DNA from: Geosiphon pyriformis uo1
Taxonomy: Eukaryota; Fungi; Glomeromycota
Assembly (NCBI GenBank): GCA_016748015.1
Contig: JAAOMT010000681.1
Location: 71,605-135,604 of the forward strand
Direction of reading: 5' to 3'
DNA: 64,000 bases
Shown one piece after another: positions 40-51,802 of this stretch. Both the position numbers and the translations under genes were made by a program. Numbering within the stretch: position 1 is the first letter of the stretch; each line of letters begins with the position of its first letter. The notes beneath the pieces were generated by a model. That model was not told where the DNA came from, did not search any database, and saw only the letters and a program-made list of their open reading frames with translations.

Positions 40-1021
40 TGTTACCGGAGGTTTTTGGTCTTTTTTCTTAAATGTTGGTAATGTTGATTTGCTGTGAATT
101 CACGTTTTCAGGAAGTAGTTGAACCTTCAATAACTGAATTTATCTTCAAATTATCTCCTATAATTTGAACTGCTGGGCTTATAAGTGGAATGGCCAATTT
201 CTTGCCAGTTACTTTATGTAGTTACATTGTAGTAAACATCAACTCTTTCCCAGGAATTGCTCGTCTGGAAGCTCACTAAAAATGTGTAGTTACTTTGCTG
301 TAAAAGTCAACTCTTCTACAGGAATCTTGTCTGTAGGCTACCCTAATGATTATAGTAAGAAAAATAAAAGAAAATAAAAGAAATGTAAAAGAAATAGAAT
401 TTTTGTTAAGAAAAACATTTTCTATCCAGACCTGAAGTTACTAACAGTTTACTGAAATTGGTAGCTAATCAATTTCAAAATGTTTAGTTGGGTTTTGGGA
501 ATTTTTCAAGTACAATAATTAAAGAATTTGGTTTTTTTGAATTATTTGATATTTTTTTTTTTTTGTGTATATAGGAACGGTTTTAAGAGATAAATCTAAA
601 GTAAGATATATTTTCTCGAAGAGAGAAACTCTTCTTTTATACAACTTGTCATAACACTATTCTATGAACTTAAACTTTGCTATTTTCTACAATTTTGCTG
701 AACTAAAGATACATTTCGGCAAACTACAAGTTATTTTTGCAAACTATTAGATATTTCAGTAAACTATCAATTATTTTGGCAAATTTCTATAAATTTTGGC
801 AAACTTTTGAATGTTACATAGTTCAGGGTATTGCATAATTGATCATCGCAATTAGGTTACATTTGTTTTGTGTACAATTTGGGTTATTAATTAAATGATA
901 ATTTCGGACATTTTTGCTAATGTAATAAGTGATAATTTGAAATGATAATATATGCTAATTAATGATAGAAATTATAAGATAATTTCATGCTAAATAATAT
1001 CTCTAATTTTGTCTGGTAACA
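40..1021 (-). repeat. 3' LTR of E1
   Basis: TGTTACC...GGTAACA termini; near-identical to 8931-9911; purine tract GAGAAGAAGA on the minus strand just inside at ~1022-1037. Confidence 0.95.
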
Positions 1022-1709
1022 TAATCTTCTTCTCAAGACTGAGCTCCGTCGAAGTCCAAGTACTGTTTGTTATTTCCAGATAATAATCCAAAATTATTAA
1101 AGAAATTTGGTCTGAAAATTGTTGAAATTTCAGTTCTGTGAGCTTTCTAATGTATTGAATCTTCAAAGGTTGAAAAATTGGGTTTTGTAGTACATTTTCA
1201 CAGGTGTGAAATAGGTCATAAAGTCTAAGAGCAGCTCTGAGCCTGTAGTAACTGTTTGTTGATCCAGCTGTTGTCTTGAATTCGTTGTGGAATTGTTTCT
1301 GAATAGCTTTTTTTGCGAGGTTTGCTGTTGTAAGTTCCAGTTTCTGTTCGTAGAGTGTTTTTCCAATGTGAAAATATCTATAGATTGGAGGATATTCAGT
1401 GTTTTTTTCATTGAGACACAGTTGAAGTTTTTGTTGAATTGTAGCATTTGGTGGAATACTAATCAGAATGAGCATTAGATTTTCTCTTAAAGCAAGTTTT
1501 AAAAGTTCTGGCAGGTGAATTCCAGTATAACTTCTTGTGTTCTTCTTATACGGGTAATATTTTCATGAATTTGGGGCTAAATTTGTAACTACTTCTATTT
1601 GGGTATAATTAATGTGGTTTCCAGTAACAGTAATAGATAATTCGGGTATTGTTTTTAAAGCTAACATTAGTTTTTGGGATAATTGTTGAATGTTTTGAGG
1701 AATAGTCAT
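990..1709 (-). pseudogene. E1 ORF3, ~239-aa accessory protein of unknown function, one internal TGA
   Basis: ATG at 1709 is in frame with the 990-1475 ORF (MTIPQNIQQLSQKLMLAL...YRYFHIG...AALRLYDLF). It runs through the PPT and ends inside the 3' LTR. Homologs lie in E3, E4 and E5. Confidence 0.8.
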
Positions 1710-1830
1710 TATAAGTGATTTGAAATAAAAAAAAATTATTTTTGGTGCATGGGTTTTTATGTTATTTTTGTTTTGTTTTTGTGAGATTGTTTCTAAATTA
1801 TAAGAAGATAACTATAATAATAAATTTAAA

Positions 1831-3216
1831 TTAAGTGTTCAAGTTGTGAGGCTGTTCAATGACAACTATTGATTCTAAATTTCGGGGAATGTCTTCAGGA
1901 TTGATTAAAGGGGAATGTATACCAATTTGTGGAATTAATGGTTCAAGATTGTTTCTGGAATTATAGTGTTTCAAACAATCTCCATGTGCAATTTTTGCTA
2001 GAATTTTGTCATCAAGTCTTAGCTTGTATGATCTATTGCCTAAAACTTCATGAATAAAGAATGGTTCATCCCATTTATTTTCAAATTTTCCACTTCATTG
2101 TTTTTCAGCCTTAGTTCTGTGTAAGAGAACTTTATTTCCAACTTTAAATTCATTGGTAATAAATGGTAATTTATTGTCATGTCTTTCTTTTTGTTGAGCT
2201 TGGGAATGTTCAATATGAGCTGTTGCTATTCTTTTTTTTCCTTCCAGTGTACTAAGAAGAGTGTAGGCTCTTCTTTGGAGTGTCTCTTGAAAGTTTTTTT
2301 CATTGATTGGTTGCACTGGGTATGTTTCCACTGTAAAATTAATTGGTAATATTGCTGTCTTTCCATAAGTAAGATCAAATAGTGTGTGTTTTATAGTATC
2401 TTGTTTTAGTGTTCTGTATGCTAGTAACACTGATGAAATAAAGATATCCCATTCCTGTTCAAAGTCTGTTGAGACTTTGGCTAAAGATTCACACAATGTT
2501 CTGTTAAAACGTTCTACAAGTCCATTTGTTTGAGGGAGATAAGGTGATGATAGAAGTCTTTTGACATTGAACCGTTTACAAATTTCTTGTATCAAGTTGT
2601 TCACAAAATGTGTTCCTTGATCAGATAAGAGTTCAAATAGGCATCCATGTCTACAGATAATGTCTTTATAGATAAATTTTACTACTGATTTTGCATCTGC
2701 TCTTTGGATGGCTCCGGCTTCAGGCCATTTGGTAAGATAGTCTACGACTACTGCAATGTAGTGGTTTTCTTGGTTTGTAATAGGTAATGGTCTGACTAAA
2801 TCAATACCAACTCTGTCAAAAGGCTGTCCAACTTTGATTGGGTTTAAAGGTTCTGTAGGGCGAGTTCCTCCTCTTTTTTGACAACTATCACAAGATTCGA
2901 CATATTCGTAAATGTTTTTTCTCATTCAAGGCCAAAAGTAGTATTCTAGTGTTCTTTGGGTGGTGCTGTCTTTTCCAAAGTGGGCTGATGAAGGATTTGA
3001 GTGCATGTTGTATAATATAGTCTCTTTTTCCTGTTCTTGTATTAATCTAAGTGGTTTGTCTGGGTTTTTGAAATTTCAGTAATAAATAATGTTGTTGTGT
3101 AAAAAATATTGTTTGGCTTGTTGTTGTAGTTGATGTTTTTCATCTGGAAACCAATCTGTTGGGATTGTTAATGTTTCCAAATATTGTTTGAGATTATTGT
3201 AGTTTTCCGAATTCAT
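1831..3216 (-). pseudogene. E1 integrase, separate ORF
   Basis: Own ATG (MNSENYNNLKQYL); HHCC finger (MHSNPSSAHFG...CDSCQ); DDE core (GIDL, SDQGTHF, NGLVERFN); GPF-type C-terminal module; no chromodomain; a few premature stops. Confidence 0.9.
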
Positions 3217-3272
3217 TGTTTGTTGGCTCTTTTGGTTGGTTAAGTTGAGTGTTGGTTTTTGTGTTTTTTTTT

Positions 3273-6200
3273 CTAATCTTATCTCATTCTGGAGAGACAG
3301 TCAACATTGGTGTGGAGTTTTCCTGGTTTGTGATGTACTATGTATCAATAGTTTGCTAGAAATCCTGTCTATCGGGTTTTTTTTGCATTCAGCTGAGTAT
3401 TTTTGTTCTGAAGTCATTTGAGTCCAATATTATCAGTGATAATATCGAATTCTTTAGGCCTGAGATAAAGGTTGAAGTGGTGTAGGGCCCAAATTATGGC
3501 TGCTGTTTCTAGTTCTGTGGCAGGGTAGTTTTTCTCAGCTGGTTTTAATGTTCTGCTAGCATAGGCAATTACTCGCTTATTTTTATTGTCATTTAGTTGT
3601 GATAAAATGGCACCAAAGACAGTATATGAAGCATCTGTAGCTAGTCGAAATCGGTTGCTGAAATCCGGGTAGGCGAAGATTGGAGCTGTTGTCAGTTTTT
3701 CCTTGAGAATTTCAAAAGCTTTTTGGTGTTCAGTAGTCCATTTGTATTCAACGTTTTTGGTGGTGAGCTGGTTGATGAGTTTTGCAATTTCCGAGAATCC
3801 TTTGATAAACTTCCGATAGTAGGATGCTAATTCTATGAATCCTCTTAGTTCTGTAGTATTTTGTGGAACTTTGAAATTCTTAACAGCACTGATTTTTCCA
3901 GAATTTGGTTTGACTCCTTCTTCACTAACTATGTGACCAAGAAAGGCCAGACTTGTTTTTCCAAAATGGCATTTCTCAATGTTTAGTTTTAATCCTGCCC
4001 TACGTAATCGTTGAAAAACTTCTCACAGGTGAATTAAATGGAGTTCAAAAGATGGGGAATAAACATCAGTGTTATCAAGATAAACAACTATTGATTTCCA
4101 AAGGAGTCCAGCATATACAATATCCATGAGTCTTTAGAATGTTGCTGGCACATTGCATAATTTAAAGGGCATTACATTGAATTCATAGTTTCCTTCTTGT
4201 GTTGTGAATGCTGTTTTGGAGTTGTCCTTGGAATCCATAGCAACTTGCCAGTATTCATTTTCTAGGTCTAATGTTGAAAGGTATTTAGATTTTCCAAGGG
4301 CATCTAACATGTCATCAATTCGCGAAAAAGGGTAAGCATCCCCAATGATGACACTATTGAGTTGTTGATAATCAACACAAAATTGTATTTTTCTATTTTT
4401 CTTTTTAATTAGGACCATAGGTGAGGCCCATGGATTCATTGATGGTTGGATAAGCCCATTGTTAAGCATTTGTTGTACTTCTTCTTGGATAAATTGGTGA
4501 CTTTCTGAAGCAACTCGGTAGACTTGTTGTCATCTTGGTTTAGCATCTTCTGTATAGATTTGGTGTTGCACCAAATCGGTTCTTCCTAAGTCATTGTTGT
4601 TTTCGGCAAAAATATCAGCAAAATCTGCAATTAGTTTCTTGAGCTGGTTTTGTTGTTGTGGTTCAAGTTGTCCTATGTTGATTCGAGACAGTTTTTCCAT
4701 AACAACATAGTAGTTTTCAGAGCTGAAGTTTGGGTTGATTTTTGGTAGTGAATGTCCAATGATTTCAGAGAAATCAGAAACTGTTTGGGGTAATTCTTGT
4801 TGAAATATATTACTGTGAATAATTCCAATTTCTAAATTATTTAATAAAATTATGGGGTAATTATTGGGGTTGTAAAAAGTAACTTGGACTTTCTTTGTTC
4901 CTTCTGGAATATAAATGTTTGGGATCAAAATATTATGTTTCAAGCAGACTTGTTCATTGGATTCAAAAATTTGTTGTGTGGTTGTTGGCTTTGGGCAGAT
5001 GTAGATTTCCAGATGTTCTTCAAAGAGTGAGATGGTAATTGGTTGTGGAAGTCTAAGAATCTGGTGGGATTCTTTCTGTTTGTTGAGAGCTATGTTTACT
5101 GGAACTGTGAAACATCCAGTTGAACCAAAACCTTGTGTTCCTCTTTCACTTTTTCCCAACTGTTCTCTTTGATTAACTAATTGTAAACTCGAAATGTTGA
5201 TTAAGGGTAAATAGATAGCTTGAACAATTTTTTCAGCATATTCAATTTTGAAAGGTTTATCAGTTTCATTTTGTAACATGACTGTAATGTTTCCTGTGTA
5301 TCCAGCATCAATGATTCTTCCTCTAACATTGATTTTTTTGCTTGCCAAGGATGATCGAGAAGCAATTTGAACTATTGCTCCTGGTGGGATTTCGAGGGCA
5401 ATTTTGAGATTGATTTTTGTGAGCAATTTGGGTTTGAGAATAAGAGTATTTTTTCCTGGATATTTTAGATCATATCAGCATCAATCTCGTGAGCTTTTTC
5501 TGGTTTTATTCCTTTGTCCATTGTTGTTGAAGTATTTAAGTTGTAATGCAGGCTAATTTTTGATGAGATAGATGGGTGTTGTCTCAATTTCTTTTGTCAC
5601 TTCAAGTTCTCTGAATTTAATTTCATATTCATCATTTTCACTGGGCAAGGGAATGCTAAGAGCATAGCATTCAGGACACCACTGTTCATCACAAGGCATA
5701 ATGCATTCTTCACATAGCCTAATGTTCATTTGCTCTAATTGTTGAATTTGAGCTTCTTGGGTTGGGTAGATGTGACTTGCGATTTGGTAGTAGACTTCTA
5801 CTTCGTCTTTGTAATTGAATCCAGCTAATTCCATAGTGTATTCAATGTATTCTGCTTCCTTCATTTGACAAACATCTTCTTTGGTAGCTCCATTAATTAA
5901 TGTCATTGCTAAGTCGAAAATCATTTCGGCATTATGGGGGTAGTGATAAAGTTTGTTGAGAGTACTGTTGTATGCTGCATAAAAGAGAGTTCCCCTTTTT
6001 ACTTTTTCTGAAATTGATAAAGCATATTGACAGGTCTGATTGCAGACTTCTGCTCTCATGGCTACATCAATCTAATTGCATTCTTCTGGTAGCATATCTC
6101 TACAAGTCAAACAAGGGGTGTTGTCCTATTTTCCACTCCTTTTTATTAGATGGCCCCATCATTCTCTGTGGCAAGCCTTGCAGTAATAACAAGTATGATT

Positions 6201-8885
6201 TTCATATTTTTCTTCAGGTGAAATGCAGGCTCTCATTGATGATAGTTTCTTGTGGCAGTCCTTACATTTAAGAGGAATATAGGGACATTGTTTCTTTGGT
6301 TCGGGTTTTGAGTAAGGGATATTCCATCTAGAGGTTTCGGGTTCAGAATATAGGGTAAAATGTTCTTGTTCTGTTTCATCGGCCCAGTTAGATGTTGATC
6401 CAAGAGCCATAAATGTTTCAAAGAGGGGTTTTTCCTCCTCTAGTTCGAATTCAAAAGCCGGGGCTTTTTCAGAATGTTTGTTAAATATACCACAAGTAGC
6501 AGGTACCCGGGTGTGTTGTCCTTGGTAAGAGATTGTTAACTCTTGTGTCTCCCAATTCAGATTAGCATTGGCTTTTTAAAGCCAATCATTTCTAACAAGA
6601 GCTTGGTACTGGGGTGCGTCTATTACAAGAACTTTGACTGGAATAGTGATTCCATCAAGGGTGAATGGAAAATTGTCAATTTCTTCTACTGAAGTTTTTT
6701 TCATGCCATCAGCAGTGACAATTACTGTTTGAGCTGGTCAGTCGACATTTCTCTTCAACTGTTGCATTAACTGGTAGGTGATAATGCTTCCAGCAGATCC
6801 ACTGTCTAAGATCAAGCAAATTGTTTTTCCTTCGACTTCTGCTTTGGTGTACATAGCCATGATTGCTTTTTGTTCATTGGCAGCTACATTGCTAAGCAGG
6901 AATGGTGACTTATTTGCTTCAAACTCAAAAGAGAATATATCTGAAAGGTTAGCATTTTCAGCAATTCTGGCTGGTGAGATTGTGGTGGGAGTATAGGAAA
7001 GGTTTTGTTGTTGTGCTGCAGCTCTACCTTCCGAGGGTACAGTATGGTGAAAATCTTGTTCTTCTGACATTGTTAGATAACTGGGTTGAGTGTGATAATG
7101 GTTGGATTTTGGTTGAGTAGAATTTCGGGGAACCAATTGGTTGCTTGAACTGATTCTATTGTTGTTTACTTGGTATCGGTTTTGTGGTGTAAATTGACTT
7201 TGTATACTCAGTCTTTGAGTAGGTACTTGATAATGTTGTGTGGGTGGTTGTTGGTATTGCTGTTGGATTGTCTGTGGGGTGGGCTGATAATAGTTATTTT
7301 GGTATTGAGGTCTTGGTAGATAGTAAGCTAGTGGTGGTAGTGGTTGATAATAAGATTGCTGTGGTAGAAGGTAACATTAATTACTTCTATTTTGTTGGTC
7401 TCGTTGTAGCTTTCTGCAATCTCTTTTTCAGTGGCCAGAGTTTCTACAGTAATGGCAATTCTGAGGCTGGTTATTAGAAAGTGGTGCAAAGTTGTTTTGA
7501 TTTCGTCTTTGTGGTGGTTAATATCTTTGGGGTTGCTGTTGTTGTTGGTTAGTGAAATAGTTTTCAACTTTTTTTGTGAGTTGGTCAATTTTTTCCTCAG
7601 CTGCTGAGCTGTTTTCTCCAATTGCCAAATTTACAAGTTTTGTGCAATTGGTCTTTTCTATGGCCATTTCATATCTTTTCGCATACTGTATGGCAGAGTT
7701 TAAATCTTCTGGCGCATGTGGCTAAATCTTTTTAATTAGTTTATCTTTTAGACCAGTGATAAATTGATCCAAGATTTGAGCATTGGAATAATAATTGTTT
7801 GTTTCGAGTTGGCAAATTTGTCTGAGAAGTTTGTTGAATTTCCCAATATAAGTCATAACAGATTCGGAGGGTTCTTGTTTGATATTTCAAAAACAATTGC
7901 GAAGAGTAATAGAGATATTATTGTCAGTGAACTGTTCAAGGAAGGCTGCTTTGAAAGCATTCTAATTATTGAATGGGGCAGCCAAGTTTTTAAACCATTC
8001 TTCTGCTGTTTCTTTGAGAAAGTAGGGAATTGTTCTTAACATTCTGGCAGCATTCCATCCATTTGCATCTCCAGCTTTAGTAACTTGGTCGAGCCATTCT
8101 TGGAGACTGGTCTCAATGTCTTCTCCATTAAATTCAGGGATTTTTGTGATGTATGTTGTCATTTCATCTTCTTCATTTTCACTGTCTATTGATTCTTCTT
8201 CGGATATTTCAGGTTCATTTTCTTCATTCACTGCTGTCTCAGAGTGTTCACTTTGATTTTCAGCTAGAAAGTCAAGGAGATTGGAACTAGTTTGAAGGGG
8301 TTCTTGTTGTCTGGTGAGACTTCTAAGTGATGTAAAATCTTCTGGTCTTGCAAATCGATTCAAGGGTGAATTAGGTGTTTGTGCTTGTGCAAGTAAAGCT
8401 GGAAAAGATGTGATAGTAAGTGGAAGTTTTGAACTGGTTCCTTGTGCAGGTGTTTGTAAATGTTTGAATGATATTTTGGGAGTATTGGGTGTTGTGTGAA
8501 TAGGTCGGTTATCTTTTTGTCTTTTGTTGCTACTGGTTTCAGGTTCAGATTCGAGTTCAAAAGCAAATTGTGCATTTGCAGGATATTTTTCTTCACAGAA
8601 TCAAATGATATTATAATCAAGTTCCTCAAAATAAGTAGTGCAAGCTTCAGCACTAATGTTTTTTGATTCAGTGTTGGAATAGTGTAGTATGTTCTCAAGA
8701 AGATCTTTTTTAACTGTTGTAATGTTATAGTTTCCAAAGAGGTAGTCGTTGATTCAATTTTTGATGTATTGAAAAAGTGTTTTCTTAAAAGCTATGATTC
8801 TGTCGTGTATTTTAAATCATTGTTTGCAGTCTGTATAAATCCATTGATAGTATTCTAAAGTTGTGATGTCTGAGGTGGTCACCAC
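3273..8885 (-). pseudogene. E1 ORF1: gag (CCHC) - aspartic protease - Cys-rich domain - dUTPase - RT - RNase H
   Basis: All ORF-track fragments from 4134 to 8363 that carry these domains share one frame. Motifs: CHYCRNSGHxKRDC knuckle (~7415-7457), ILDSGSAGS protease, RT NPWASP / FCVDY / YLDN(D), RH ATDAS...V(A)DCLSR. Many CGA/CAA/TGG-derived stops. Confidence 0.9.
5115..5500 (-). other. dUTPase domain inside E1 pol
   Basis: All five trimeric dUTPase motifs: DA(G)YDL, ASRSSLA, GRIIDAGYTGNI, KIVQAI, SERGTQGFGSTG. Confidence 0.92.
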
Positions 8886-8910
8886 TTTGAATTTGTTGTT
8901 GCTGTGTTAT

Positions 8911-8928
8911 TTCTGTGGGAGAGCACCA
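8911..8928 (-). promoter_or_regulatory. Primer binding site of E1
   Basis: TGGTGCTCTCCCACAGAA begins 2 nt after the 5' LTR, complementary to a tRNA ending GAGCACCA. Related PBSs start at 46468 (-), 24037 (+) and 35345 (-). tRNA identity not assigned. Confidence 0.85.
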
Positions 8929-8930
8929 AA

Positions 8931-9911
8931 TGTTACCAGAGGTTTTTGGTCTCTTTTTTTAAATGTTGATAATGTTGATTTGCTGTGAATTCACGTTTTC
9001 AAGAAGTAGTTGAACCTCCAATAACTGAATTTATCTTCAAATTATCTCCTATAATTTGAACTGCTGGGCTTATAAGTGGAATGACCAATTCCTTGTCAGT
9101 TACTTTATGTAGTTACGTTATAGTAAACGTCAACTCTTTCCCAGGAATTGCTCATCTGGAAGCTCACTAAAAATGTGTAGTTACTTTGCTGTAAAAGTCA
9201 ACTCTTCTACAGGAATCTTGTCTGTAGGCTACTCTAATGATTATAGTAAGAAAAATAAAAGAAAATAAAAGAAATGTAAAAGAAATAGAATTTTTGTCAA
9301 GAGAAACGTTTTCTATCCAGGCCTGGAGTCACTAACAGTTTACTGAAATTGGTAGCTAATCAATTTCGAAATGTTAGTTGGGTTTTGGGAATTTTTCAAG
9401 TACAATAATTAAAGAATTTGGTTTTTTTGAATTATTTGATATTTTTTTTTTTTTGTGTATATAGGAACGGTTTTAAGAGATAAATCTAAAGTAAGATATA
9501 TTTTCTCGAAGAGAAAAACTCTTCTTTTATACAACTTGTCATAACACTATTCTATGAACTTGAACTTTGCTATTTTCTACAATTTTGCTAAACTAAAGAT
9601 ACATTTTGGTGAACTACAAATTATTTCTGCGAACTATTAAATATTTCAGTGAACTATCAATTATTTCAGCAAATTTCTATAAATTTTGGCGAACTTTTGA
9701 ATGTTACATAGTTCAGGGTATTGCATAATTAATCATTGCAATTAGGTTATATTTGTTTTGTGTACAATTTGGGTTATTAATTAAATGATAATTTCAGACA
9801 TTTTTGCTAATATAATAAGTGATAATTTGAAATGATAATATATGCTAATTAATGATAGAAATTATAAGATAATTTTATGCTAAATAATATCTCTAATTTC
9901 ATCTGATAACA
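8931..9911 (-). repeat. 5' LTR of E1
   Basis: Direct repeat of 40-1021, adjacent to the PBS. Confidence 0.95.
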
Positions 9912-11391: not shown

Positions 11392-13294
11392 GTGGATTTG
11401 GAAGCTGCTTCTAATGGCATTATGTCTAAGAAGACAGTGGCCAAAAGTGCTTTTTCTGGTCCTGCTGGCAGTTCTTTTGCTCAAAAGAAAAAGGTTGGAG
11501 TTGGCAATATTAAACACTCTGGTAATGAAAAAAATATTTCTTTGGTCAGGTCTAGTGCTAATGGTGGTGAGTTTTCTGATATGAATAGTAAATCTAGTGA
11601 TAATGGTGATGGTAGTGGTGGTGCTATTTCTATAGTTGGTGTTAGTGGTGGGTTTTTTTTTGGCTCGGCAGCTACCACTTCTAAAGCAAAGCAAGTTAAA
11701 CCTGATATGACTCTCAGTTCTTCTTTCAGCTTTCCCAATTACGACATGGATAAGGAAGTTATACCTTTTCCACTTCCTTTTAAGAAAATCCCCTTAGAGA
11801 AGATTTGGATTGATCCCAAAAATTGTGAAAACTCCTGTTGAGGTGGCTAAGAATAAGTCTTTTACATTGGATATCAATTTTTTGGCAGTAAAAGACAATT
11901 CAATTACAGCAAAAACTCAGCTTATTCGAAAAATTTTCTCAAAAGTCAATGGTTTTGAAGAGGCCACTACTCCCTTAAAATTTGAAGAGATCATCTGATT
12001 AATGTTTACATCTGAAGAAAGCATGAAGAAAGCCATTTCATTGGCTGAAGTTAATGATATCAATGTAAACACTGATCTTAAAAAACAGAGTTTTTGTTCA
12101 AATCGGGCTGTAGTAATTAAAAAAATTCTCATAAATACACCAAAAAATATGATCATCACTGCAGTATCCGAATTTGGAGTTATTAAATCAATAAAAGTTC
12201 AGCTGATTGAGATATGGCAGAAGGCTGTGGTAAAATTTGCCAAATCAGGTTAGGCTAATCTGCTGGCTTCCAAATAGTTATTCTTAATTGGGAAAGATTC
12301 AATGCATGGGGCCAAAGTTGTGAGAAATTGTGATGTCTGGGCATCAAAAAATCAGTTTAGAGCACTGTTGTTTATCTTGCCTATGGGTACAACTGCACAT
12401 GATTTTGGGGCTTTCTTAAAACAGGCTGGTAGGAAAACATGTATTATCAATTGCTTATTGGAAACAGGCAATAGGTTTTGTTGTGCTGTGGTTGGTTTCA
12501 AATTTGAGGAAGTGTTGGAGTCTGCTTTTTGCACTGTGCCAAATTTTGGTAGGGTACAACTCTCATGGGCCAGATTGAATTTGGTTTGGTGTGAGAAATA
12601 TAGGTGTTTTGGCCACTCAATTCTTAAATGTAATATGCCTGATACATCATCTTCCAATTCTCCAGTCTTATTTAAAAAACATGCTTTTGGTGTGAGTTAT
12701 CTTCAGCTGGCAAAGCTGTATGCCAAGAAAAATGTTCCTATCTCTTGTTCTGTTGCTTTTGGTGGCAAGTCATGGGCCCAAGTAGTTTCCCTTGCCTCTT
12801 CTTCTAGTGGCTCTCCATCTGGTTCTGGTGTTAGGTCTGGTGCCTCCTCATTTGGTGTCTTTGGTTTGAATGGTAGCTCTTCTTCAGTCTTGTCTAACAA
12901 CTCTTTTATGGTTGCTTGTTTGGCGTCTTTAGAATGCTCTTTGGAGATCTTGGGCAACCAAGTTTCCAGTATTCTCAAAAAATTGAGTTTTGTCGATTTG
13001 GTGCCATTGGAGCTGTCCCTTAGTAATCCCTCCTTGGTTGTCTCTGTGCCTGTAGTTCCTGTTTTGGATTCAGATATGGCTCTGAATAATGAATTGTCTT
13101 CTGTTCCTCTTCTTTCAAGTGTTAATGAATTGGTTGCTAATCTTAGCTTGAGTAGTTTTAAGATTCTGACTGCCAAGGTAAGCAGTTTGGAATCAAAGTT
13201 GGTGGCTTTAGAGGCATCTGTTGGGTCTATTTTATCAAAATTGGATTTTCTTTGTTTTGGTTTGGGTTTGCTGCTAAACTCTTTTTCCCAATGA
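11392..13294 (+). pseudogene. LINE ORF1 (nucleic-acid chaperone with CCHC-like knuckle and coiled coil)
   Basis: Fragments 11392-11841, 11810-11998, 12002-12253 and 12302-13294; CEKYRCFGHSILKC motif; heptad-like KVSSLESKLVALEASV. Confidence 0.8.
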
Positions 13295-16200
13295 GTGATC
13301 TAGTATGGAGAATTGCTACGTGCAATGTGCATGGGATGAACAATTTTGCAAAACAGGAAGACATTTTTTGTTGGCATACTGATTCTGGCAATTTGATCTC
13401 AATTGTTACAAAAACCAAATTGTGTTCTAATTCACAGCCATGAATAATGAAAAAGTTTGAGGGTGTTCGGGTTTTTACATCTGGGTTGGATGCTAGATTT
13501 TGTGGTGCTGGTGTTGCCATCTTCATGAATAATTCCTTGGCTTGTCATGTTTCCAAAGTCATAAAGGTTAAGAGCAGAGTTCTTTTGGTTTGTCTTCTGT
13601 TTAAAAACAAGCTTTCAATTTTGGTTATTGGGTTGTATATGTGTGCATTTGGTTGTGACAGATTTGTTCAGGCTTCTGTGGTTAACTTTTTTATTGTCAA
13701 TGCTGTCAACAAGAGTTCTTTTGTTGTTTTGGATGGAGATTTCAATGAAGACAATTTTGTGAAGGATGCTAGCCTTAGAAAATGCTTGGGGTTGGGTTTG
13801 GTCAACACTCTTAAAAGATGTCATCTGACTGAGATTCTTACCTAGAACAATTCAAGAGGTGTGAGCAAAGTTTTGGACTATATTTTTGTTAGTAATTCTT
13901 TGGCATCAGCTGTAGTGCATCATGAAGTTGATTCAGTTTCTGAATTTTTTGACACAGATCACTTGGCCGTCTCAATATTGGTTGGCTTTGGTGGCCTTTT
14001 GGACTTTCATCTAAACAGTCTTCACAAACATACTAATAAGAATTGCTGGAAATTTAAAATTAAGAATGCAGATGTGAAAAAGTGGGCTCTTTTCAAAGAT
14101 TTTTCTGGGTCTGCACTTTTGGGGTCTCTGGCTAAGTTTGAAGTTTCTAAAGAAACGAATAACTTGGATGAGATGTGAGGGGTTTTGGTCAGATCTGTAA
14201 CCACTTCTGCTGATAAGGTTTTTTCAAAATATTGGTTTAGTGAATTCAATTGTGCTAGAAATAGACATTTTTCAAAGTTCTTTAGGTTAGAGTTATTAGT
14301 TGTCAAGTTGTTAAGAATGCTGAAACTGGATAATGCATCTGGCTTCAATCATTTTGTTGATGCTTGGTTTGTTGTTGACCCTACTGAGGCATCTTTGGTT
14401 CATGGTATGATTGATAATGGTGTGTGCAATAGTATTTTGGTGGGTCATCTTTCAAAAATTCATAAATATTATAGGAAGTTCAAGTATTTTGAGTCTGAAG
14501 TGGCCAAAGGTCTTGTGATCAGAGATGCAATTGATAAGTGTATGGAAAAATTTAGTACTGACAAGGGTGGGATAATTAAGAGCATCTTGGAATGGCCTTT
14601 TCACAAAGTTGTCTTGGACTATTTGGTTGTCGATGACTCTCTCATTTTGGAACCTGATGAAGTGAAACTCAAAGTTGATGACATCATAGTTAATTGGACC
14701 AGAAAAAAAAATGCTTTTTCAGTTCTGTCTGGCCCTTGGGCACAACAATATGCCCCTCTGGATTACGTCAATAATAGTGCTTTTAGCTTGGTCATATGCG
14801 ATATTAGCATGAGTGAGATGTCTTTGGTAATTAACAATCTTCCTGATGGCAAAGCTGCTAGTTTATTTGGGATCCCCAATGAACTTTGGAAACATGCTGA
14901 TGCTTTGGTCTTGGAGTGTTTGTTGGCTTTGTTAAACTATTGTTTATATTTTGGTGATATTCTAATCCTTTGGAAGAAGACTTGGGTGTCTATGATCCCT
15001 AAGCCTTATGATTGGGATGGTGTTCTTTCAAATACATGACCTATTGCTTTGATCGAAACTGCCAGAAAGATTCTTTCAAAAATTCTTTCAGATAGAATTT
15101 TTTTTGCTTGTAGTAAGTTTGATGTTCTCCATGGTAATAACTTTTCAGTCCTCAAGGGTATGTCTACTCAATCTCTTTTTTTTGCTGTGAGCTTTATTGT
15201 GGAAGATGCTTTGGAAAAGGACTGTGAGCTTTGGCTGGTTCTTCAAAACATGTGTAAAGCATATAATTCCATTGGTTGGCCTCATTTGAAAGCTAGTTTA
15301 CGTCATGTCAAAATGTGTGACAGGTTTATTAGGTTTTTTATCAACATCCACAACAACTGATTCAACAAAGTTAAGACTGATTTCCACTTTTCAGATGGAT
15401 ACAGGGTGCATGATGGTTTGGATTAGGGTGAAATCTTCTTCCTGCTTCTCTGGAGAATTTTCTATGACCCCCTGTTATGTGAGATTATAAGACAGGATCA
15501 TTTATGTGGGTATCAGATTAACTTCAACTTTGTAGCAAAGACCAGTAGGATAGAGACTAGTAGGAGTATAATGTCGTTCTTTGCAGCTGGTGCTTTTGTT
15601 AATGACACAATTTGGGTGAAGAATGAACAGGCTTCTACTCAACATATTTTTGGTATTGCCAGCGAGTTTTTCTCTATTAATGATATTAATATTAACAATA
15701 AAAAGACTGTCACCATTCCTATCAACAAGAAGGTAAGTTCTCCAGTCTTGTCAATCAATGGCCAAGCTATTGCTATTGCTAAGCCTGATAAAAGTCATAG
15801 ATATTTGGGTATTTTTTTATCCACTTATGGCTTGTTCAAGCCAAGCCTAGCCAAAGTTAGTTCGGATGTCCAATTTTTTTTGAATTTGGTTTTTCAGAAA
15901 GCTATATCTGATAAACAATTTTCTTATTTAGTCTCAGCTGTTCTACAACCTATTGTTAGTTATCGGACTCAATTTAGTTTTGTTTTCAGAGTTGTGTGTC
16001 AAAAATGGGACATTTTAATCAGAAAGGGCCTTAGATTGAAGACTTGTCTGCTAAGAAACTTTCCGAATGAGGTCTTATATCATCTGTTCCTTTATGGTCT
16101 GAAGTTTTTTGAACAATTGCAAGCTGAGTACAAAGTGGCATCCATTGTGCAGTTTGCCAATGCCTCTGGGATTCTTGGCCAGTTGTTTGACTATCATCTT

Positions 16201-17976
16201 TTAGATTTACAAGTTTTGTGCTGGGCTTCACTAAATCCTCTCCAATTTTCTGTTAAGTTGAAGGTGACCACTTTCAATAATTTTCTGGTGGGTGTGGTTT
16301 GTTTGTTTGTAGATAATAAATTATTCTTGGTCAACTATCTTCCCAATGCCTTTCAATCTTCTGACCGCTTCTCAATGTCAGTAATTTTAGGTGATTCCTT
16401 GTATTTCAATGTAGCCTGTTCCTTAAAATTAGCTGGAGTGGCTTTTGGAGACCAACTCTTAGACAAAAATGGTTCTGTTATCAATTGGCATACATTTCAC
16501 TATTGAAAAAGACTGAGTTCTAAGAGCTCTGTGCCTTGTTAGTTTATGAAGGCTTCTGCCTATATGAACAATTTTTTGAATGTTTCTCCTTCTTTGGAGT
16601 TGGCAATCTCTTGCCCTGATGTTTTAAATTCAGCTATGTTTGCTGGTGTTTATGATGACCAGCATGGATTATGAGCTGATGAATTTTGTGTTTACACTAA
16701 CAGTTTCCTCAAGGGTTTGGGTATGCCTCAAGTGACTTGTGGTGCTGCTGCTTACTTTCCTAGTTTGAATAGAAGTCTGGAAGTGGAAGTTCATGGTGTT
16801 CTGTTATCTACTTTGGCAGAGCTGCAGGCTGTTGCTTTGGCTCTGATGTGTGTTCCTGCTTCATGTTTGGTTGCCTTATATACTGACAGTCAGACGTCTA
16901 TTGATGCATGTGTTTTTGAATTGGGTCTTTTACAACCTAATTATCACAACAAGTGTTGAATAGAATGGCATCATGTTGTTAATTTGATTAAATCCAAGGA
17001 CTTTTCTGTCTGCTGGATCAAAGTTAAGAGTCATGCTAACATTGCTGGTAATGTTAAGGTTGATGCTCTTGCCAATCAGACTGCACACTCTGGAGTTTCT
17101 CTCCCTGCTGGAATTTCTGATAGATATATGGTTGCTAATGGTAAGGTGGTTTCTGGAAATGCTCACCACTTTGTCTGTGACATCTTTTGTTCTGTCTGTT
17201 GTCTTCAATGAGAGGTTGGTCCTGGTCAGAGTGTTTGGTCTGGTTTATTTGGTTTGGATGTTGATTGGAATAGCACTACTCTGGTCTGGCACTCTGACTC
17301 TTATATGTTCTCTGAAAGTACTTGTCGGACCACTGCTGCTCTTCACACATATTTTATGAAAGCTGTTCATTTAAGACTACCTATTGTCATCTGAAAGAGA
17401 CTTTATGATAAGGCTTATTCTGGGATTCTGTGTTTGTTTTGTGGTAATGTGGAGCTTTCCGACCATGTTTTTACTTGTGCTAATGATGTCTCTGCTTGTT
17501 CTAATATTTTGAATAAGTTTGGTAATCTGTGGAGATCTCTGTTGGGTTGTGATTTGGCTTTGCCATCTTCTGTGCTGAGTGATCTCTCTTTGGGATTATC
17601 TGATATTGGTTTGTATTCTGTTTTTTGCAAGGGGTTTGTTCTGAATAGGTGAGTGGATGAGGCCACTGTGGCTCTTGATGCCAGGAAGAAGGCAATCTTT
17701 GTAGTGGTAGATTTTGTTCATCATCTGGCCGAGTGGCATAGATTGAGTCTTTGGCTTTTTAGGGCTAAATTCAGAGTGAACATAGAAAGGGAAGACTTGA
17801 TTGGTGATGATAGTATTGTGCCTGGTCCTGTTGGTGTGTCCTCCTCACCTCTCTCTGCTGGTGCTATTTGACTTATCAACATTCTGGATTCACTTAGTGT
17901 CAGTTTTGGCTTTAAGGAGAGGTTCTTGTTTTTCTCTAGTGCAATTAGTAGGGTTTGTGTTTCTATAGGTGTGTAG
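13291..17976 (+). pseudogene. LINE ORF2: AP endonuclease - RT - RNase H - Cys/His finger
   Basis: ATCNVHG, GDFN, LDYIFVS and TDH (APE); FVN(D)DT (RT); STLAELQAV, YTDSQ and KVKSH..GN..D (RNase H); CLFCGNVELSDHVFTC. One 1562-codon frame with scattered stops. Confidence 0.92.
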
Positions 17977-19444: not shown

Positions 19445-20160
19445 TGTTATAAATTGAAGTAACAAACTAATAAATAGCAAAAAAACACAAGATTGTAAAA
19501 TAATAAAAAAAATCAAAGAGAATTCAACTTCAAAAAGTGAATTAAATGAGTATGAATTTAATATATAAAATCAGTCTCATAAAATATCTTAGTTATTATA
19601 CTTTTTAAAAGATAACTGAAAAATTTGAAGATAAAAGGATAGTTTATACTGTTAACAAATGATTACACACTGGTATAATTCTATGTCTTACATTGGTACT
19701 TTTAGAATTCAATATCAGATATCAGATGTGTTTTTCAGTCATATTTTATTTAATAATCTTCAAATGCTACAATTACATATTTTAAGAAAAAAGTAGAGAA
19801 TAACCAACAAGTAATCTTTTATCTTAAGATGTTCAAATACTTGAAGGTAAGGAAAGAGAAATTAGTGATAAGAGAAAAATTGAGATGAAAGTTATTATTT
19901 TATTTATTTGATTTCTTCAATTTCTGATATGTATTTCTATAGCTAAGAGATTCATTGCTTATATAGCTATCAAAAAGAGTCAATGATCAGGTTAACAACT
20001 AGGTTAATAATCAGATCAATAATTAGATTAATGATCAGATCAACAATAGGGTCATTAATCAGGTCAATGATTACTATCTAAAAATAAAGTAACTAATTAT
20101 ATGACATCAGTGGTTAATACATGTAATAACTAATAAAAAATATGGGTTTTAATCATAATA
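19445..20160 (-). repeat. 3' LTR of E3
   Basis: Direct repeat of 46475-47130; 12-bp tandem array at ~19980-20074. Confidence 0.9.
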
Positions 20161-20579
20161 TCATCCTCTTAAAAAAAATTAAGCTCTGGCAAAATCAAGA
20201 TATTTATAAAATAATCTATTTAAAGAGTTTTGTTTAATTCAAAGCTAACTAGTTTATTGAAGTCTTTGGTAGATAAGATATATAATATTTAAGGTGAAAT
20301 GAGTTTTGTATCTAAGAAACCAAATTTTTGTATTAAAGTTTTGGTTCTTTTAGCAATAGTTAAAACTTTTGAGATATCTAATTATATAATGCCCAAAATT
20401 TTTGCCTGTATCTTTAAAATTGTTTTTTTGGGTCTAATAATAATATGTGTTCTATTGTTATCAGTTATAGTGATTTGTTTTTTAATAATCAGAGTAGCAT
20501 TTGGATAGTTTTTGATTTAATACTTATGAAAAATATAGAAAATGTTTTAAATGTTTTGATCCAAGAAATAATTATTCAT
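20161..20579 (-). pseudogene. E3 ORF3 (shorter, divergent homolog)
   Basis: ATG at 20579; reads ...IAKRTKTLIQKFGFLDTKLISP*ILYILSTKDFNKL...LPELNFF, resembling the ORF3 C-terminal motif. Confidence 0.55.
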
Positions 20580-26026: not shown

Positions 26027-26943
26027 TGTTACAAGTGATTATTTGGGATTTTAAAGCAAATAATAAACCCATAACTTGGTGCTCAATTGATGATATTAGT
26101 AATGTCTGAAGATGTTTTGATCTAAAGGTTTTGATTAAAGTTTTTTGTATAATAGACAGAGATTCCTATGTTATTTTATTTGTAGCTTCTCAGAATTACA
26201 ATTCCATCAATTTTTTTTTCAGCATAATGGCTGGCAATTTTCTGATAAGCAATCCATAATTCTTATGCATTTTATTTACTTACAGAGATTTTTTACTAGG
26301 CAATTTTTGATGTTAATACTTAGCACTTAATTTTCAATCAATTAATATATACAACAAAATAAAGCAAAAATAAAGAGATAAAAAAAAATAAAGACAATAA
26401 GCCAAGACAATATAAGTTAGTATTCTATCAATAGCTGTGATCAAAGGCTATTGTTCCCACATGTTTTAAGTATCAATTACTATCAACATTTTAGAATTGA
26501 TAACAAACAATTGGATTTGAAATGCTGAATAAGTATATTTATTAATATTTTGGAATAATATGGTTTCTAACTAAGAAACAGTAACTAATGAATTTCTGTT
26601 TGGCGATTTGTCTTTTCTGCTTTTAATGATACTGCTATATATATGTATTTTCTAGTTTTACAAGGTTACTTTAGATCATCTGTTCTTGCTAATTATCACT
26701 TTATTTTCTTATATTATAACTAATTATCCTATATTATAATATGTTATCTAATATTATTACACATTATTCTGTGTTATTCTGCATTATAACATGTTATCCC
26801 ATATTATAACATATTATCCTATGTTATAACACATTATCCAACATTATTGTGTGCTATTCTGTGTCTTTTTACATTTTATCACGTTTTTTTTCAGATCACA
26901 TTTTTCCTTCTTTCTTTGATAGGCTTTCTTTTTTCAAGTAATA
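26027..26943 (-). repeat. 3' LTR of E5
   Basis: Direct repeat of 35348-36265; 10-bp periodic array at 26711-26860. Confidence 0.92.
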
Positions 26944-26959
26944 TTATTTCTTCCTTTTT

Positions 26960-27729
26960 TAATATTGAGTTTTTATAAAGTCAGTTATGTTTGTTAATAG
27001 AACTTTGTTTATGTAATGTTTGATGGTTATGTTGACTATGGCTTTTTGTAGATCTTTGAACTGTTGATTGGTCATTTGTTTTATGTTGTTGACTGTTATT
27101 TTTTTCAAAGATCCATCCAATAGTATGTTTGAACAATGTCAGAAAGTAACATATAATTGATATACTGCCTTGTAGTATAGTGTTAGGTTGCTCCTTCCTA
27201 CAAATTTTTCTACTTATCATATTGTTTCTTTGTTAAAAATTTTCTGGTTGTAGTTTCCATATGGGTTTTTTAAGTCTAATTGTTCTTTGATTTTGTAAAA
27301 TCAATATGTTAGAAGGAGTTTTTTTTTCCACTTCTAGACATTGTCTGGTGTCTACTCTTTTGTTTCAGGGAGTTTGGTCACATGAGCTAAAGATTCTTTA
27401 ATTTTTTCTAGTTTCAAGACCAAGTATGTTGTATATAATTGTTTTTGTCTTCTATCTAATTTTTTCACTCTTTCTTCTTCCTCTCCTCTTTTTTCTCCAC
27501 ATTTCACCTAAGAAGTATATTTAATTTCTTTTTGTAAAATTTCTTTCTTGGGCAGAATATAGAAATGAGAATAGTTAGTTCTAGTTGAACTCTTACCCAT
27601 CCTTTTCTTTCTCTTATCTCTATATCTTATCTCTTTTTTATCAATTATAATTTTTATTTGAGATGTAGATTTTTGAATTTTGTTAAATAATTGTTTAGAT
27701 AATTTTAAAATTTTGTTTGAAAAGTCCAT
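26960..27729 (-). pseudogene. E5 ORF3
   Basis: MDFSNKILKLSKQLFNKIQKSTSQIKIIIDKKEIRY...GRSNLTLYYKAVYQLYVTF*HCSNIL aligns by eye with E1 and E4 ORF3. Confidence 0.75.
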
Positions 27730-27809
27730 GTTTGAAATTTCTATCATTCTTTTTTTTGTGGTTTTGAGACTTATATGCACATAATATCTAGATTTTGGCA
27801 TGTATATAG

Positions 27810-29173
27810 CTATGTCTTAATGATTATAATTGGTTCCATATTTTATGATATATCTTCTGGTCTGATTAATAAAATTTGTGCTTTTAGTTGTGATTCCACT
27901 GATGTTGATCCTTGTGTTTGATAAATTTTTAAATGATTTCCATGTGCTGTTCTTTTCAGAATTCTGTTTTCTAATCATAACTTGTAAGATCTGTTTCCTA
28001 AAATTTTGTGTATGTAAAATGATCCATCCTATTTTGGATCAAACTTTCTATTCCATTGTTTTTCTGCTTTGGTATGATGTAACAATACTTTGTTTTCAAT
28101 TCTGAATTCGACTGGTTTATCTGATAGTTAGTTATTGTGCTTTTTTTTTTGTTTTTCTTGTGATTTTTTGAATGTTATTAACTGCTCTTTGCCATTTGTT
28201 TTTTAGTGTTTCCATTAAGTCATATGTTTTTCTTAGCAATGTTTTTTGAAAATTGTCTTCTGTTATTGGTTTTGTTGGATATGTATTAACTTCTATTTCA
28301 ACTGGTAATGTTGTTTTTTTACTGTATACTAATTTAAATAGTGTTGCTTGTGTAGTATCTTGTTTTATCATTCGATAAGCAAATAATACTAATGGTATGA
28401 ATAAATTCTATTTGTTCTGGTTTTCTTGGCTGATTTTGGCTATTGCTTTACACAATGTTTTATTAAATCTTTCAACTAATCTATTGTTTTGTAAATAATA
28501 TGATGATGATAATGGTCTCTTCATTCTAAATCTTTGATTCAGTTCTGTTAATATTCTATTTACAAAGTGAGTTTTTTGGTCGAATAATAATTCTTTTGGA
28601 CATTTGTGTTAACAAATCAGATCTTGATGAATGAATTTGGCAACAGATTCTGCATCTGCTCTTTGAATTGCTTTTGTTTCTCCATTTAGTAAGTTAATTT
28701 ATGGCTACTGTGGTGTATCTGTTTTTTTTGCTAGTTATTATTAATGATTTAACTAAGTCAATTCCAATACACTCAAATGGTTGTCTTACTTTAATTGGTC
28801 TTAATGGCTCATTGGGTCTTATTCCTCCTCTTCTCTGACAAGCATCACAATTTTGCATGTATTAGATAATGTTTGGATACATAGATGGCCAATAATATTT
28901 ATTTCTAGTTTTTTTCATGATTGCTTCTTTGTAAAAATGTCCTGCTGTTAGATTAGAGTACATGTTGAATAATATTGTTTTTTTTTTTGGTTCTGTAATT
29001 ACTCTGGTTGGTTGATCTAGATTTTTTTTGTTTTTCCAATAAAGTATATTTTGGTAAGTGATAAAATATTTGAATTGTTGTTTGATATGGTTTTGTTTCT
29101 TTTGAAATAATTTCTCCTTGAATCATTAAGTATTTATAAAATGTTGAAGTTGTTAATATTTTTGTGTATTCAT
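27810..29173 (-). pseudogene. E5 integrase, separate ORF
   Basis: ATG at 29173 (MNTQKY); HHCC and DDE motifs; ends EPIIIIKT*. Confidence 0.85.
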
Positions 29174-29203
29174 TTTTTGTTATATTTTTGGGTTGAAGTG
29201 TTC

Positions 29204-35200: not shown

Positions 35201-35284
35201 TAATCTCAAGTGTTAACAGTAGTATTGAAATAAAAATTTGCCAAATCTTAAATGGTTTGTTTCTATTCTTTGTGGTTCTGCCAC
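29204..35284 (-). pseudogene. E5 ORF1 gag-PR-Cys-rich-dUTPase-RT-RH
   Basis: ORF-track fragments 33866-34132 (gag), 32819-33214 (ILDSSSAGS), 31099-31764 (dUTPase), 30056-30469 and 29687-29989 (RT). Confidence 0.88.
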
Positions 35285-35347
35285 TTTTGGATGGTTGTGT
35301 ATTAGTACTGGTTCTCTGTAAAATTATATTTCACAAAGAGCACTAAA

Positions 35348-36265
35348 TATTACAAGTAATTATTTGGGGTCTCAAAGCAAATAACAAACCCATAACTTGG
35401 TGCTTAATTGATAATGTTAGTAATGTCTGAAGGTGTTTCAATTTGAAGGTTTTGATTGGAGTTCTTTGTATAATAGACAAAGATTCCCATGTTATTTTAT
35501 CCATAGCTTTCCAGAATTGCAATTCCATCAATTTTTTTCTTAGCATGGTGGCCAGTAATTCTCTGGTAAGCAATCCGTAATTCTTATATGTTCTACCCAC
35601 TTGCAGAGTTTTTTTACCAGACAATTCTTAACATTAATACTTAGCACTTAATCTTTAATCAATTAGTATACACAACAAAATAAAACAAAAATAAAGAGAT
35701 AAAAAAAAACAAAAACAATAAGTTAAGACAATGTAAGTTAGTATTCCATCAATAGCTGTGATCAAGGGCTATTGTTTCTGCATGCTTTAAATATTAATTA
35801 TTATCAACATTTTAGAGTTGATAGCAAACAATTGAATTTGAAATGCTGAATAAGTATATTTATTGATATTTTGGAATAATATGATTTCTAATTGGAGAAT
35901 GATAACTAATGAATTTCTGTCTGGAGATTCTGTCTTTTTTGCTTCTAATGCTACTGCTATATATATGTATTTTCTAGTTTTACAGGATTGCTTTAAATCA
36001 TCTGTTCTTGCTAGCTATTGCTTTATTTTTTTATATTATAATTAATTTTTCTATGTTATAACACATTATTTAATATTATTACACATTATTCTGTGTTATC
36101 CTGCATTATAACACATTATTCTACATTATAACACATTATTCTATGTTATAATACATTATCCAATATTATTGTGTGCTATTTTGTATCCCTTTATGTTTTG
36201 TCACATTTTTCTTCAGATCATGTTTTTTCTTCTTTTTTTGATAAGCTTTTTTTCTTCAAGTAACA
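35348..36265 (-). repeat. 5' LTR of E5
   Basis: Direct repeat of 26027-26943, adjacent to the PBS. Confidence 0.92.
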
Positions 36266-41931: not shown

Positions 41932-42570
41932 ATGAAAATACCAGACCATATTTACACTTTAGTTTAACAATTGTTTCAGGCTTTAAGTTAACAGCAAGTA
42001 AACATAGAAATTATTATTAACAACCAAACAATCTGTTATCAAAACACTAAACAAAAAGGGAAAAGTACATCATACCAGCAACCACAAAAACAATTAATAA
42101 ACTAGTCAGATAAAATAGTAGAGAAAATAAAAAACACTTTTGGAAAGATAATCATTATTATTTCAACAAAAAAACTGACAAAAAAAAATTGGAACCAATG
42201 AATAGACCAACTTTCAATACCATACTGCTACTATTAATTGGGACAAAAAGTAGAGATTCAGAAGTTATATTTTGACAAATCCAAGAGAATCTTCAATCAA
42301 AAGATAATTTAGAATATTGAAGACATTATTTGAAAAAAAACAAACTTGACACTATACATCAAGACCATTTATCAATTACACACTATATTTTAAAACTACC
42401 CAGAAGTATTGTTACACTTAGACATGGAAACAATAATCATCAACCAATGAGGAAGAATGAACAACTCACAAATTGAAGAAATAAAGAGTAGAATAGAACA
42501 GATACTATTTAAAAAAAAAGTATTTGACATAATTCAAAATAAGAATTTTGATGGAACTCAATATTAAAAG
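41932..42570 (+). pseudogene. E4 ORF3
   Basis: MKIPDHIYTLV*QLFQALS*QQVNIEIIINNQTICY...PYCYY*LGQKVEIQKL...IKTIYQLHTIF*NYPEVL, homologous to E1 ORF3. Confidence 0.75.
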
Positions 42571-42580
42571 AAAGAGATAA

Positions 42581-51740: not shown

Positions 51741-51802
51741 ATTTTTTAAAAATGTAAAAATCTCAAATTAAATTTTCACTATCTATTTTGTTTAAATTCT
51801 AG

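What the first reader, a model, noticed from the sequence alone, without database searches (positions are those of the whole stretch)
990..1709. Conserved non-Env ORF3 between integrase and 3' LTR
Seen: E1, E4 (41932) and E5 (27729) each have a ~210-250-codon ORF with alignable blocks. N-terminus: MTIPQNIQQLSQKLMLAL / MKIPDHIYTLV*QLFQAL / MDFSNKILKLSKQLFNKI. Middle: YRYFHIG / YCYY*LG. C-terminal: AALRLYDLF / KTIYQLHTIF / KAVYQLYVTF. E3 has a shorter relative. There is no signal peptide or transmembrane stretch, and it diverges far more than pol between E4 and E5. In E1 it overlaps the PPT and U3, like lentiviral nef. Inference: an uncharacterised accessory protein family, possibly a transactivator, anti-silencing factor or integration cofactor.
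Basis: partly seen in the sequence, partly recalled or inferred. Interest (0 to 1): 0.78.

Follow-up and report, generated by a model that had tools for sequence, protein, structure and literature searches.

The report
Unnamed third gene in fungal retrotransposons
Several families of decayed Gypsy-type jumping genes, likely from the fungus Geosiphon, carry a real third gene after the integrase; it has no membrane anchor, is predicted to fold into a helical domain with no clear known match, and likely works in the nucleus to help the element stay active.

Summary
Confirmed for E1, E4 and E5; not for E3. ORF3 (1709-990, minus, one internal stop) lies between integrase and the 3' LTR of a dUTPase-bearing Ty3/gypsy element; the host is most likely Geosiphon pyriformis. 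It is a real gene: intact 239-aa paralogues exist, E1 and E4/E5 families match by profile (95%), second codon positions are far more conserved than first and third, and five unnamed metagenomic relatives (four apparently full length) keep the same two-part layout. It diverges much faster than pol (27% vs 68-72%, E4-E5). It has no transmembrane stretch. The C-terminal domain models well (pLDDT 92), is all-helical and has no confident Pfam, PDB or viral fold match; a DUF1016_N/ParB-like lead failed a profile test. A disordered linker has a PY-NLS-like motif in 7 of 11 lineages. The 'nef-like' overlap is incidental: 10 codons into U3 in E1, while E4 and E5 stop before the PPT. Best reading (0.35): a nuclear nucleic-acid-binding regulator of the element's own expression; no function or expression was tested. 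Extra ORFs at this position are a known kind, and this scan noted similar unnamed genes in other genomes.

The parts
990..1709 (-). E1 ORF3, 239 codons, one internal stop at codon 49 (1563-1565)
1599..1703 (-). N-terminal module (residues 3-37): one helix and a two-strand hairpin, modelled at pLDDT about 60-66; hydrophobic pattern shared by all lineages with an N-terminus
1548..1565 (-). PY-NLS-like motif (basic residue, 2-5 residues, Pro-Tyr) in a basic linker with pLDDT < 50 (residues 39-64)
   Evidence: consensus from PMC2408616 abstract
1080..1526 (-). All-helical core domain (residues 62-210), pLDDT 91.6, pTM 0.85; helices 133-148 and 153-167 joined by a conserved G-x-T-N turn, conserved Arg162
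1025..1047 (-). Conserved DNA motif and polypurine tract upstream of the 3' LTR; read through by ORF3 in E1, carries the stop codon in E4 and E5
40..1021 (-). E1 3' LTR (95% identical to 5' LTR)
1710..1830 (-). A+T-rich spacer between integrase stop (1831-1833) and ORF3 start; TATA-like and pyrimidine-rich stretches seen by eye only
1831..8930 (-). E1 gag-pol, broken by many stops: gag, protease, Cys-rich stretch, dUTPase, RT, RNase H, integrase (Ty3/gypsy order); no chromodomain seen after the integrase
   Evidence: Pfam for dUTPase, RT, RNase H, integrase; gag and protease read from the translation
8931..9911 (-). E1 5' LTR, followed by a primer-binding site
41932..42567 (+). E4 ORF3, 211 codons, 9 internal stops, ends before the PPT
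26959..27729 (-). E5 ORF3, 256 codons, 7 internal stops, ends before the PPT
20169..20579 (-). Short broken frame between integrase and 3' LTR of the outer element (presumed E3); relation to ORF3 not shown

Best explanation
This is a real third gene of a group of fungal Ty3/gypsy retrotransposons, kept by selection while the elements were active, and its protein likely enters the nucleus and likely binds the element's own DNA to keep it transcribed under host silencing. Shown: position after integrase, open frame in many paralogues, protein-level constraint, no membrane segment, fast divergence relative to pol. Predicted: small N-terminal helix-hairpin module, disordered basic linker, compact all-helical core. 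Inferred: the PY motif in the linker acts as a karyopherin-beta2/Kap104 import signal; the basic helix after the G-x-T-N turn contacts nucleic acid; fast divergence follows the equally fast-changing LTRs it would recognise. How it is expressed (own promoter in the spacer or a spliced RNA) is unknown. The three copies in this window are dead.
For: Gene is real: 207 relatives at E<=0.001 among 514 candidates, 120 of 120 listed from G. pyriformis, many intact at 239 aa. Codon positions 1/2/3 identical in 44/67/45% of 187 E4-E5 codons against a shuffle null of 33/36/33%; ungapped blocks give 29/40/31 of 60, 19/35/19 of 46, 15/28/18 of 38, and E1-E5 21/32/18 of 60. Between two E1 subfamilies (40 and 27 of 121 proteins used) fixed differences are 19 of 97 core columns vs 44 of 123 elsewhere (Fisher p=0.010), while within-subfamily decay is even along the protein. 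Five unnamed metagenomic relatives keep N-module and core; two end in the same translated PPT/LTR junction as E1, which points to the same place in an LTR element. Nuclear/nucleic-acid role: basic-x2-5-PY occurs in members of 7 of 11 lineages, in the disordered linker (shuffle frequency 3-27% per sequence); in E1 subfamilies the dipeptide is PY in 16 of 26 and 15 of 27, the rest SY, LY or FY as expected from C-to-T decay. Arg162 and Asn152 are kept in 9 of 10 lineage representatives; no acidic, His or Cys column exceeds 6 of 10, so an enzyme is unlikely. E1's LTR has no blastn match to E4/E5 LTRs and E4-E5 LTRs match at 67-69%. Strong host pressure: LTR pairs differ almost only by transitions (44 of 44, 121 of 127, 97 of 104).
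Against: No fold match: best Z 6.0 among 48,161 chains, none >= 8, and the tool notes Z under 8 (13 for helical proteins) is not informative; Foldseek gave 0 hits at E<=0.001 in PDB (whole model) and in viral models. The HTH-family lead failed: DUF1016_N matched 8 of 56 members (best E=0.0075, below cut-off) but profile-profile score was 17.3-17.8 against a shuffle maximum of 20.5. The PY motif is missing in 4 of 11 lineages, including three metagenomic ones, and in E1b the full motif is met by only 8 of 27. Lysine content is inflated by G-to-A decay (E>K is the commonest change, 208 of 1642). Fixed differences were not more conservative than decay changes by BLOSUM (41% vs 45% positive). dN/dS was not computed. 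No DNA context was obtained for any non-Geosiphon relative.
Confidence: 0.35

Rival explanations
1. Rev/CERV-like factor: it binds the element's full-length RNA in the nucleus and gets it exported or stabilised.
For: Precedent in a gypsy-type element: CERV of Cer1 is nuclear and needed for genomic RNA export (PMC10309623, abstract and passages). Basic linker and PY motif fit a shuttling RNA-binding protein. A DNA motif just upstream of the PPT is kept across all elements here and could be an RNA signal. Weak fold rows include the PNPase helical domain (Z 6.0, rmsd 2.2, 59 aligned).
Against: CERV has a different described layout (H, M, G domains); no direct comparison was run. The PNPase row is within noise. 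No spliced RNA shown.
Confidence: 0.2
2. Integration cofactor: it carries the pre-integration complex into the nucleus or tethers it to chromatin, in place of a chromodomain.
For: E1 integrase ends without a visible chromodomain; import-signal-like motif; weak rows with chromatin or origin proteins (CHD1 C-terminal domain Z 5.3, rmsd 3.8, 81 aligned; an ORC chain Z 5.0, rmsd 4.8, 80 aligned).
Against: Integrase is 72% identical between E4 and E5 while ORF3 is 27%, which fits a partner of integrase poorly. Fold rows are noise-level.
Confidence: 0.2
3. Host-defence antagonist acting by protein contact (for example on RNAi or methylation machinery), evolving fast in an arms race.
For: Fast divergence with kept fold; DNA methylation and small RNAs act on TEs in a related fungus (10.1101/2021.03.30.436303, passages).
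Against: No positive-selection test was possible; conserved Arg/Asn on one helix suggest a fixed ligand.
Confidence: 0.14
4. Passenger or non-functional sequence: a captured fragment or an open frame produced by constraints on the 3' region.
For: All three window copies are broken; the last 20 codons of E1 overlie cis signals.
Against: Codon-position pattern, core-biased constraint and distant intact relatives; pol is as broken as ORF3.
Confidence: 0.05
5. Env-like or FAST-like movement protein.
For: It sits where env sits.
Against: No hydrophobic segment in 10 of 10 proteins; soluble helical model.
Confidence: 0.03

Closest known systems
Additional ORFs between pol and the 3' LTR of LTR retrotransposons (aORF-3S / aORF-3R; PMC7264820, parts 1-2 of 3 read)
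   Same: Same position; present in most copies of a family; no database similarity; Grande GENE23 is a nuclear accessory protein with its own promoter.
   Different: Sense aORFs in that review are env-like, some with membrane segments; the nuclear ones are antisense and in plants; the only fungal case named is antisense (Boty). This one is sense, soluble and in Glomeromycotina.
ORF3 types of bdelloid rotifer LTR retrotransposons (PMC5408684, abstract only)
   Same: dUTPase-bearing LTR elements with varied non-Env ORF3s.
   Different: Those are Env, small membrane proteins, GDSL esterases or DEDDy exonucleases; this protein matched none of these Pfam families and has no catalytic pattern.
CERV of C. 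elegans Cer1 (PMC10309623, abstract and passages)
   Same: Non-enzymatic accessory protein of a gypsy-type element with nuclear signals.
   Different: Made from a spliced RNA and built of H, M and G domains; no homology shown or tested directly.
VANC anti-silencing proteins of plant MuDR DNA transposons (PMC13547354, passages)
   Same: Functional analogy only: element-encoded factor that counters silencing.
   Different: DNA transposons of dicots, MAIN-related; no such match here.
DUF1016_N (YhcG N-terminus) and ParB/Spo0J-type helical DNA-binding domains
   Same: Shared Y-x-I-G-x-x-L helix pattern; Spo0J and Raf1 are among weak rows that span the whole core (Z 4.3).
   Different: Below every threshold; profile-profile test at shuffle level.

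Membership tests
Ty3/gypsy LTR retrotransposon (carrier E1) | Two LTRs, PBS, PPT, order RT-RNaseH-integrase | tested here: met
Sense additional ORF (aORF-3S) | Same-strand ORF between pol and 3' LTR | tested here: met
Sense additional ORF (aORF-3S) | Kept across copies and lineages under constraint | tested here: met
Sense additional ORF (aORF-3S) | Expressed (spliced RNA or own promoter) | not testable with these tools
   no run could be laid on the stretch (see Tried and rejected)
Env / env-like / FAST-like sORF2 | Transmembrane segment | tested here: not met
   max Kyte-Doolittle 19-mer 0.44-1.29 in 10 of 10 proteins; model soluble
Env / env-like / FAST-like sORF2 | Signal peptide or lipid anchor | tested here: inconclusive
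   judged from hydropathy only; no predictor available
Enzymatic ORF3 (DEDDy exonuclease, GDSL esterase) | Pfam match and invariant catalytic residues | tested here: not met
   no such family for members of A1 (17) or among the listed families for A8 (25 of 49 shown); no acidic/His/Cys column above 6 of 10; core all-helical
DUF1016_N (PF17761) | Score above curated cut-off or significant profile-profile match | tested here: not met
   best E=0.0075 in 8 of 56, window domain 13.3 bits vs cut-off 32.8; HHalign 17.3-17.8 vs shuffle max 20.5 with 74 YhcG proteins
ParB/Spo0J-type HTH DNA-binding fold | Structural match over the domain | tested here: inconclusive
   Spo0J Z 4.3, rmsd 4.5, 89 aligned; Raf1 Z 4.3, rmsd 5.6, 101 aligned
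PY-NLS | R/H/K-x2-5-PY in a disordered basic segment | tested here: met
   sequence only: E1 and members of 7 of 11 lineages
PY-NLS | Binds Kap104/karyopherin-beta2 and directs import | not testable with these tools
   needs experiment
Lentiviral nef-like arrangement | Conserved coding overlap with PPT and much of U3 | tested here: not met
   10 codons of U3 in E1; stop before PPT in E4 and E5

The most novel reading that the evidence does not exclude
A clade of early-diverging fungal gypsy elements encodes a nuclear regulator with a new helical fold that recognises its own LTR and counters a strong C-to-T mutating or methylating host defence: a retrotransposon counterpart of VANC or Tat/Rev in fungi, which helped LTR elements fill about 40% of the Geosiphon genome.
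Probability: 0.2. Interest if true: 0.8.

Novelty: new variant of a known kind. Interest (0 to 1): 0.5.

Why it matters
Fungal Ty3/gypsy elements are usually treated as gag-pol only. A conserved, soluble third protein spread over many lineages means these elements need an extra function, and intact paralogues plus a confident model make it easy to test. It also explains several hundred 'hypothetical proteins' in the G. pyriformis annotation as transposon products. The value is capped because extra ORFs at this site are well known and no function is shown.

Tried and rejected
No whole genome was held, so copy counts and dN/dS on DNA were not possible. DUF1016_N homology: rejected at profile level. 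phrog_23683 (unknown function) matched 19 of 56 members, best E=0.00079, mostly correlated sequences; members could not be fetched, left open. NCBIfam rows (FtsQ, 2 of 16) and PDB sequence searches (best E=0.023 and 0.58) treated as chance. Fold searches: no family listed with confidence; this does not show the fold is new, and the N-terminal module was not folded alone. ESM Atlas with P0227: top row a 98-member Mucoromycota hypothetical cluster (0.94), which may be the Geosiphon cluster itself; closterovirus coat protein (0.93, 156 shared features) is a lead only. Linkage outside Geosiphon: a DNA-motif scan of metagenome contigs gave 14 loci, 0 with pol or ORF3; the motif scan of viral contigs gave 0; protein scans of viral contigs and prokaryote genomes gave 0 confirmed; phage tblastn gave 2 rows at E=8. 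No RNA holder was listed. No self-association model was obtained, so oligomerisation is open. E3 frame as ORF3 relative: not supported. Literature: seven searches listed no paper describing this ORF; the library lacks most subscription journals, the G. pyriformis genome paper (recalled) was not listed, and no supplements or Repbase/Dfam entries were seen.

Full report
Setting. The window is A+T-rich and packed with nested LTR elements. E1 is on the minus strand with LTRs at 40-1021 and 8931-9911, 95% identical. Between them lie gag, protease, a Cys-rich stretch, dUTPase, RT, RNase H and integrase, broken by many stops. That is the Ty3/gypsy order. All 120 listed relatives of ORF3 are hypothetical proteins of Geosiphon pyriformis at up to about 90% identity, so the host is most likely that fungus. 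LTR sequences cover 41.2% of its genome (PMC11952901, passages).

Observation. E4 (41932-42564) and E5 (27729-26962) have equivalent frames with 9 and 7 stops, fewer than shuffles give. The E1 and E4/E5 families align at 95% probability over 194 columns, and each family's profile finds the other in the window. Identity is 27% for E4-E5 against 68-72% in pol, and 17-18% against 49-51% for E1. The E3 claim did not hold up: a 137-codon broken frame sits at the same place in the outer element, but profiles score it like shuffles, with one weak pairwise hint.

Is it a gene? Yes. Many paralogues are open over the full 239 codons. Second codon positions are much more conserved than first and third in every comparison, also in ungapped blocks, though these blocks were anchored on protein motifs. 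Between two E1 subfamilies, fixed changes avoid the core (19 of 97 vs 44 of 123 columns, p=0.010) while post-insertion decay is even; a BLOSUM comparison did not separate the two classes. A profile search of 1.84 billion representatives gave 93 hits. I looked up the source of 20: 15 are G. pyriformis and 5 are unnamed metagenomic proteins at about 19-30% identity to an intact E1 paralogue. These keep both the N-terminal module and the core; one is cut short. Two end in the same translated PPT/LTR junction as E1, so they probably lie at the same site of an LTR element; I could not fetch their DNA. In Geosiphon, gene models that join integrase tails to ORF3 show linkage for the E1, E5 and one further lineage.

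The overlap. E1 reads through a conserved DNA motif and the PPT and ends about 10 codons into U3. E4 and E5 read the same DNA in another frame and stop just before the PPT. The motif is therefore a cis element and the overlap is read-through, not a nef-like design.

The protein. The full model (built on the intact paralogue P0004) has an N-terminal helix and hairpin at pLDDT about 60-66, a disordered linker (39-64) and a helical core. The window's core alone reaches pLDDT 91.6, pTM 0.85. No membrane segment exists. Conserved columns are hydrophobic or aromatic, plus Gly116, Asn152, Arg162 and Gly188; no catalytic set appears. Helices 133-148 and 153-167, with a short turn and a basic second helix, look like a helix-turn-helix; that is my reading, not a match. 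Fold searches found nothing confident: best Z 6.0, Spo0J 4.3, no Foldseek hit at E<=0.001. The DUF1016_N lead (8 of 56 members, best E=0.0075) failed against 74 YhcG proteins. The linker has basic-x2-5-PY, the PY-NLS consensus (PMC2408616, abstract), in members of 7 of 11 lineages; it is absent from one Geosiphon lineage and three metagenomic proteins.

Mechanism. I favour a nuclear regulator that binds the element's own DNA and keeps it expressed (0.35). The import signal and nucleic-acid binding are inferred; the target is a guess from the parallel fast divergence of ORF3 and LTRs and from the heavy transition-only decay. A Rev/CERV-like RNA export factor (0.2), an integration cofactor (0.2) and a protein-level defence antagonist (0.14) remain open. 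Passenger (0.05) and Env-like (0.03) readings are unlikely.

Comparison with what is known. Extra ORFs between pol and the 3' LTR are well documented and mostly of unknown function (PMC7264820, parts 1-2 of 3; PMC5408684, abstract; PMC13486581, passages). Nuclear accessory proteins have precedent in Grande and Cer1, anti-silencing factors in MuDR elements. Seven literature searches listed no description of this family, within the library's limits. Earlier notes of this scan describe similar unnamed genes in other genomes; two sequence look-ups found no overlap with them, so whether they are the same family is unknown.

Verdict. A real, undescribed accessory protein family in a known genomic slot, with a well-modelled but unplaced fold and a testable nuclear-import lead. 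Interest 0.5.

Noticed in passing
LTR pairs 40-1021/8931-9911, 26027-26943/35348-36265, 23189-24033/42581-43401: Differences are almost all transitions (44 of 44, 121 of 127, 97 of 104) and fall in CpA, CpT and CpC contexts as well as CpG; protein decay is directional (E>K 208 vs K>E 30). This resembles a RIP-like or all-context methylation process, although a paper passage says RIP signatures were not detected in G. margarita or Mucoromycotina.
   Followed up: partly
19445-47130: Three-deep nesting: E5 (26027-36265) sits inside E4 (23189-43401, gag on the left, pol on the right), which sits inside an older element with LTRs at 19445 and 46475.
   Followed up: partly
4533-6575 (and matching regions of E4, E5): Pol carries a dUTPase (Pfam E=4.8e-17) between protease and RT, preceded by an unannotated Cys-rich stretch of several hundred residues.
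   Followed up: no
1025-1047, 42550-42580, 26945-26975, 20160-20190: A short DNA motif directly upstream of the PPT is kept in all four elements although their LTRs are very different; probably a cis signal.
   Followed up: partly
50608-51578: Solo LTR of the E1 family, 84-85% identical to E1's LTRs.
   Followed up: no
61421-64000: E5-like fragment in which an LTR piece directly adjoins the dUTPase region; RT, integrase and ORF3 appear deleted.
   Followed up: no
12278-17359: Long plus-strand frames (338, 286, 359 aa) with no Pfam match; possibly a non-LTR element.
   Followed up: no
55330-56613: 427-codon plus-strand frame with a weak protein-kinase match at its end (E=4.7e-5, below cut-off).
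   Followed up: no
51795-52162: Tandem repeat with a 108-base period, 66-71% identity.
   Followed up: no
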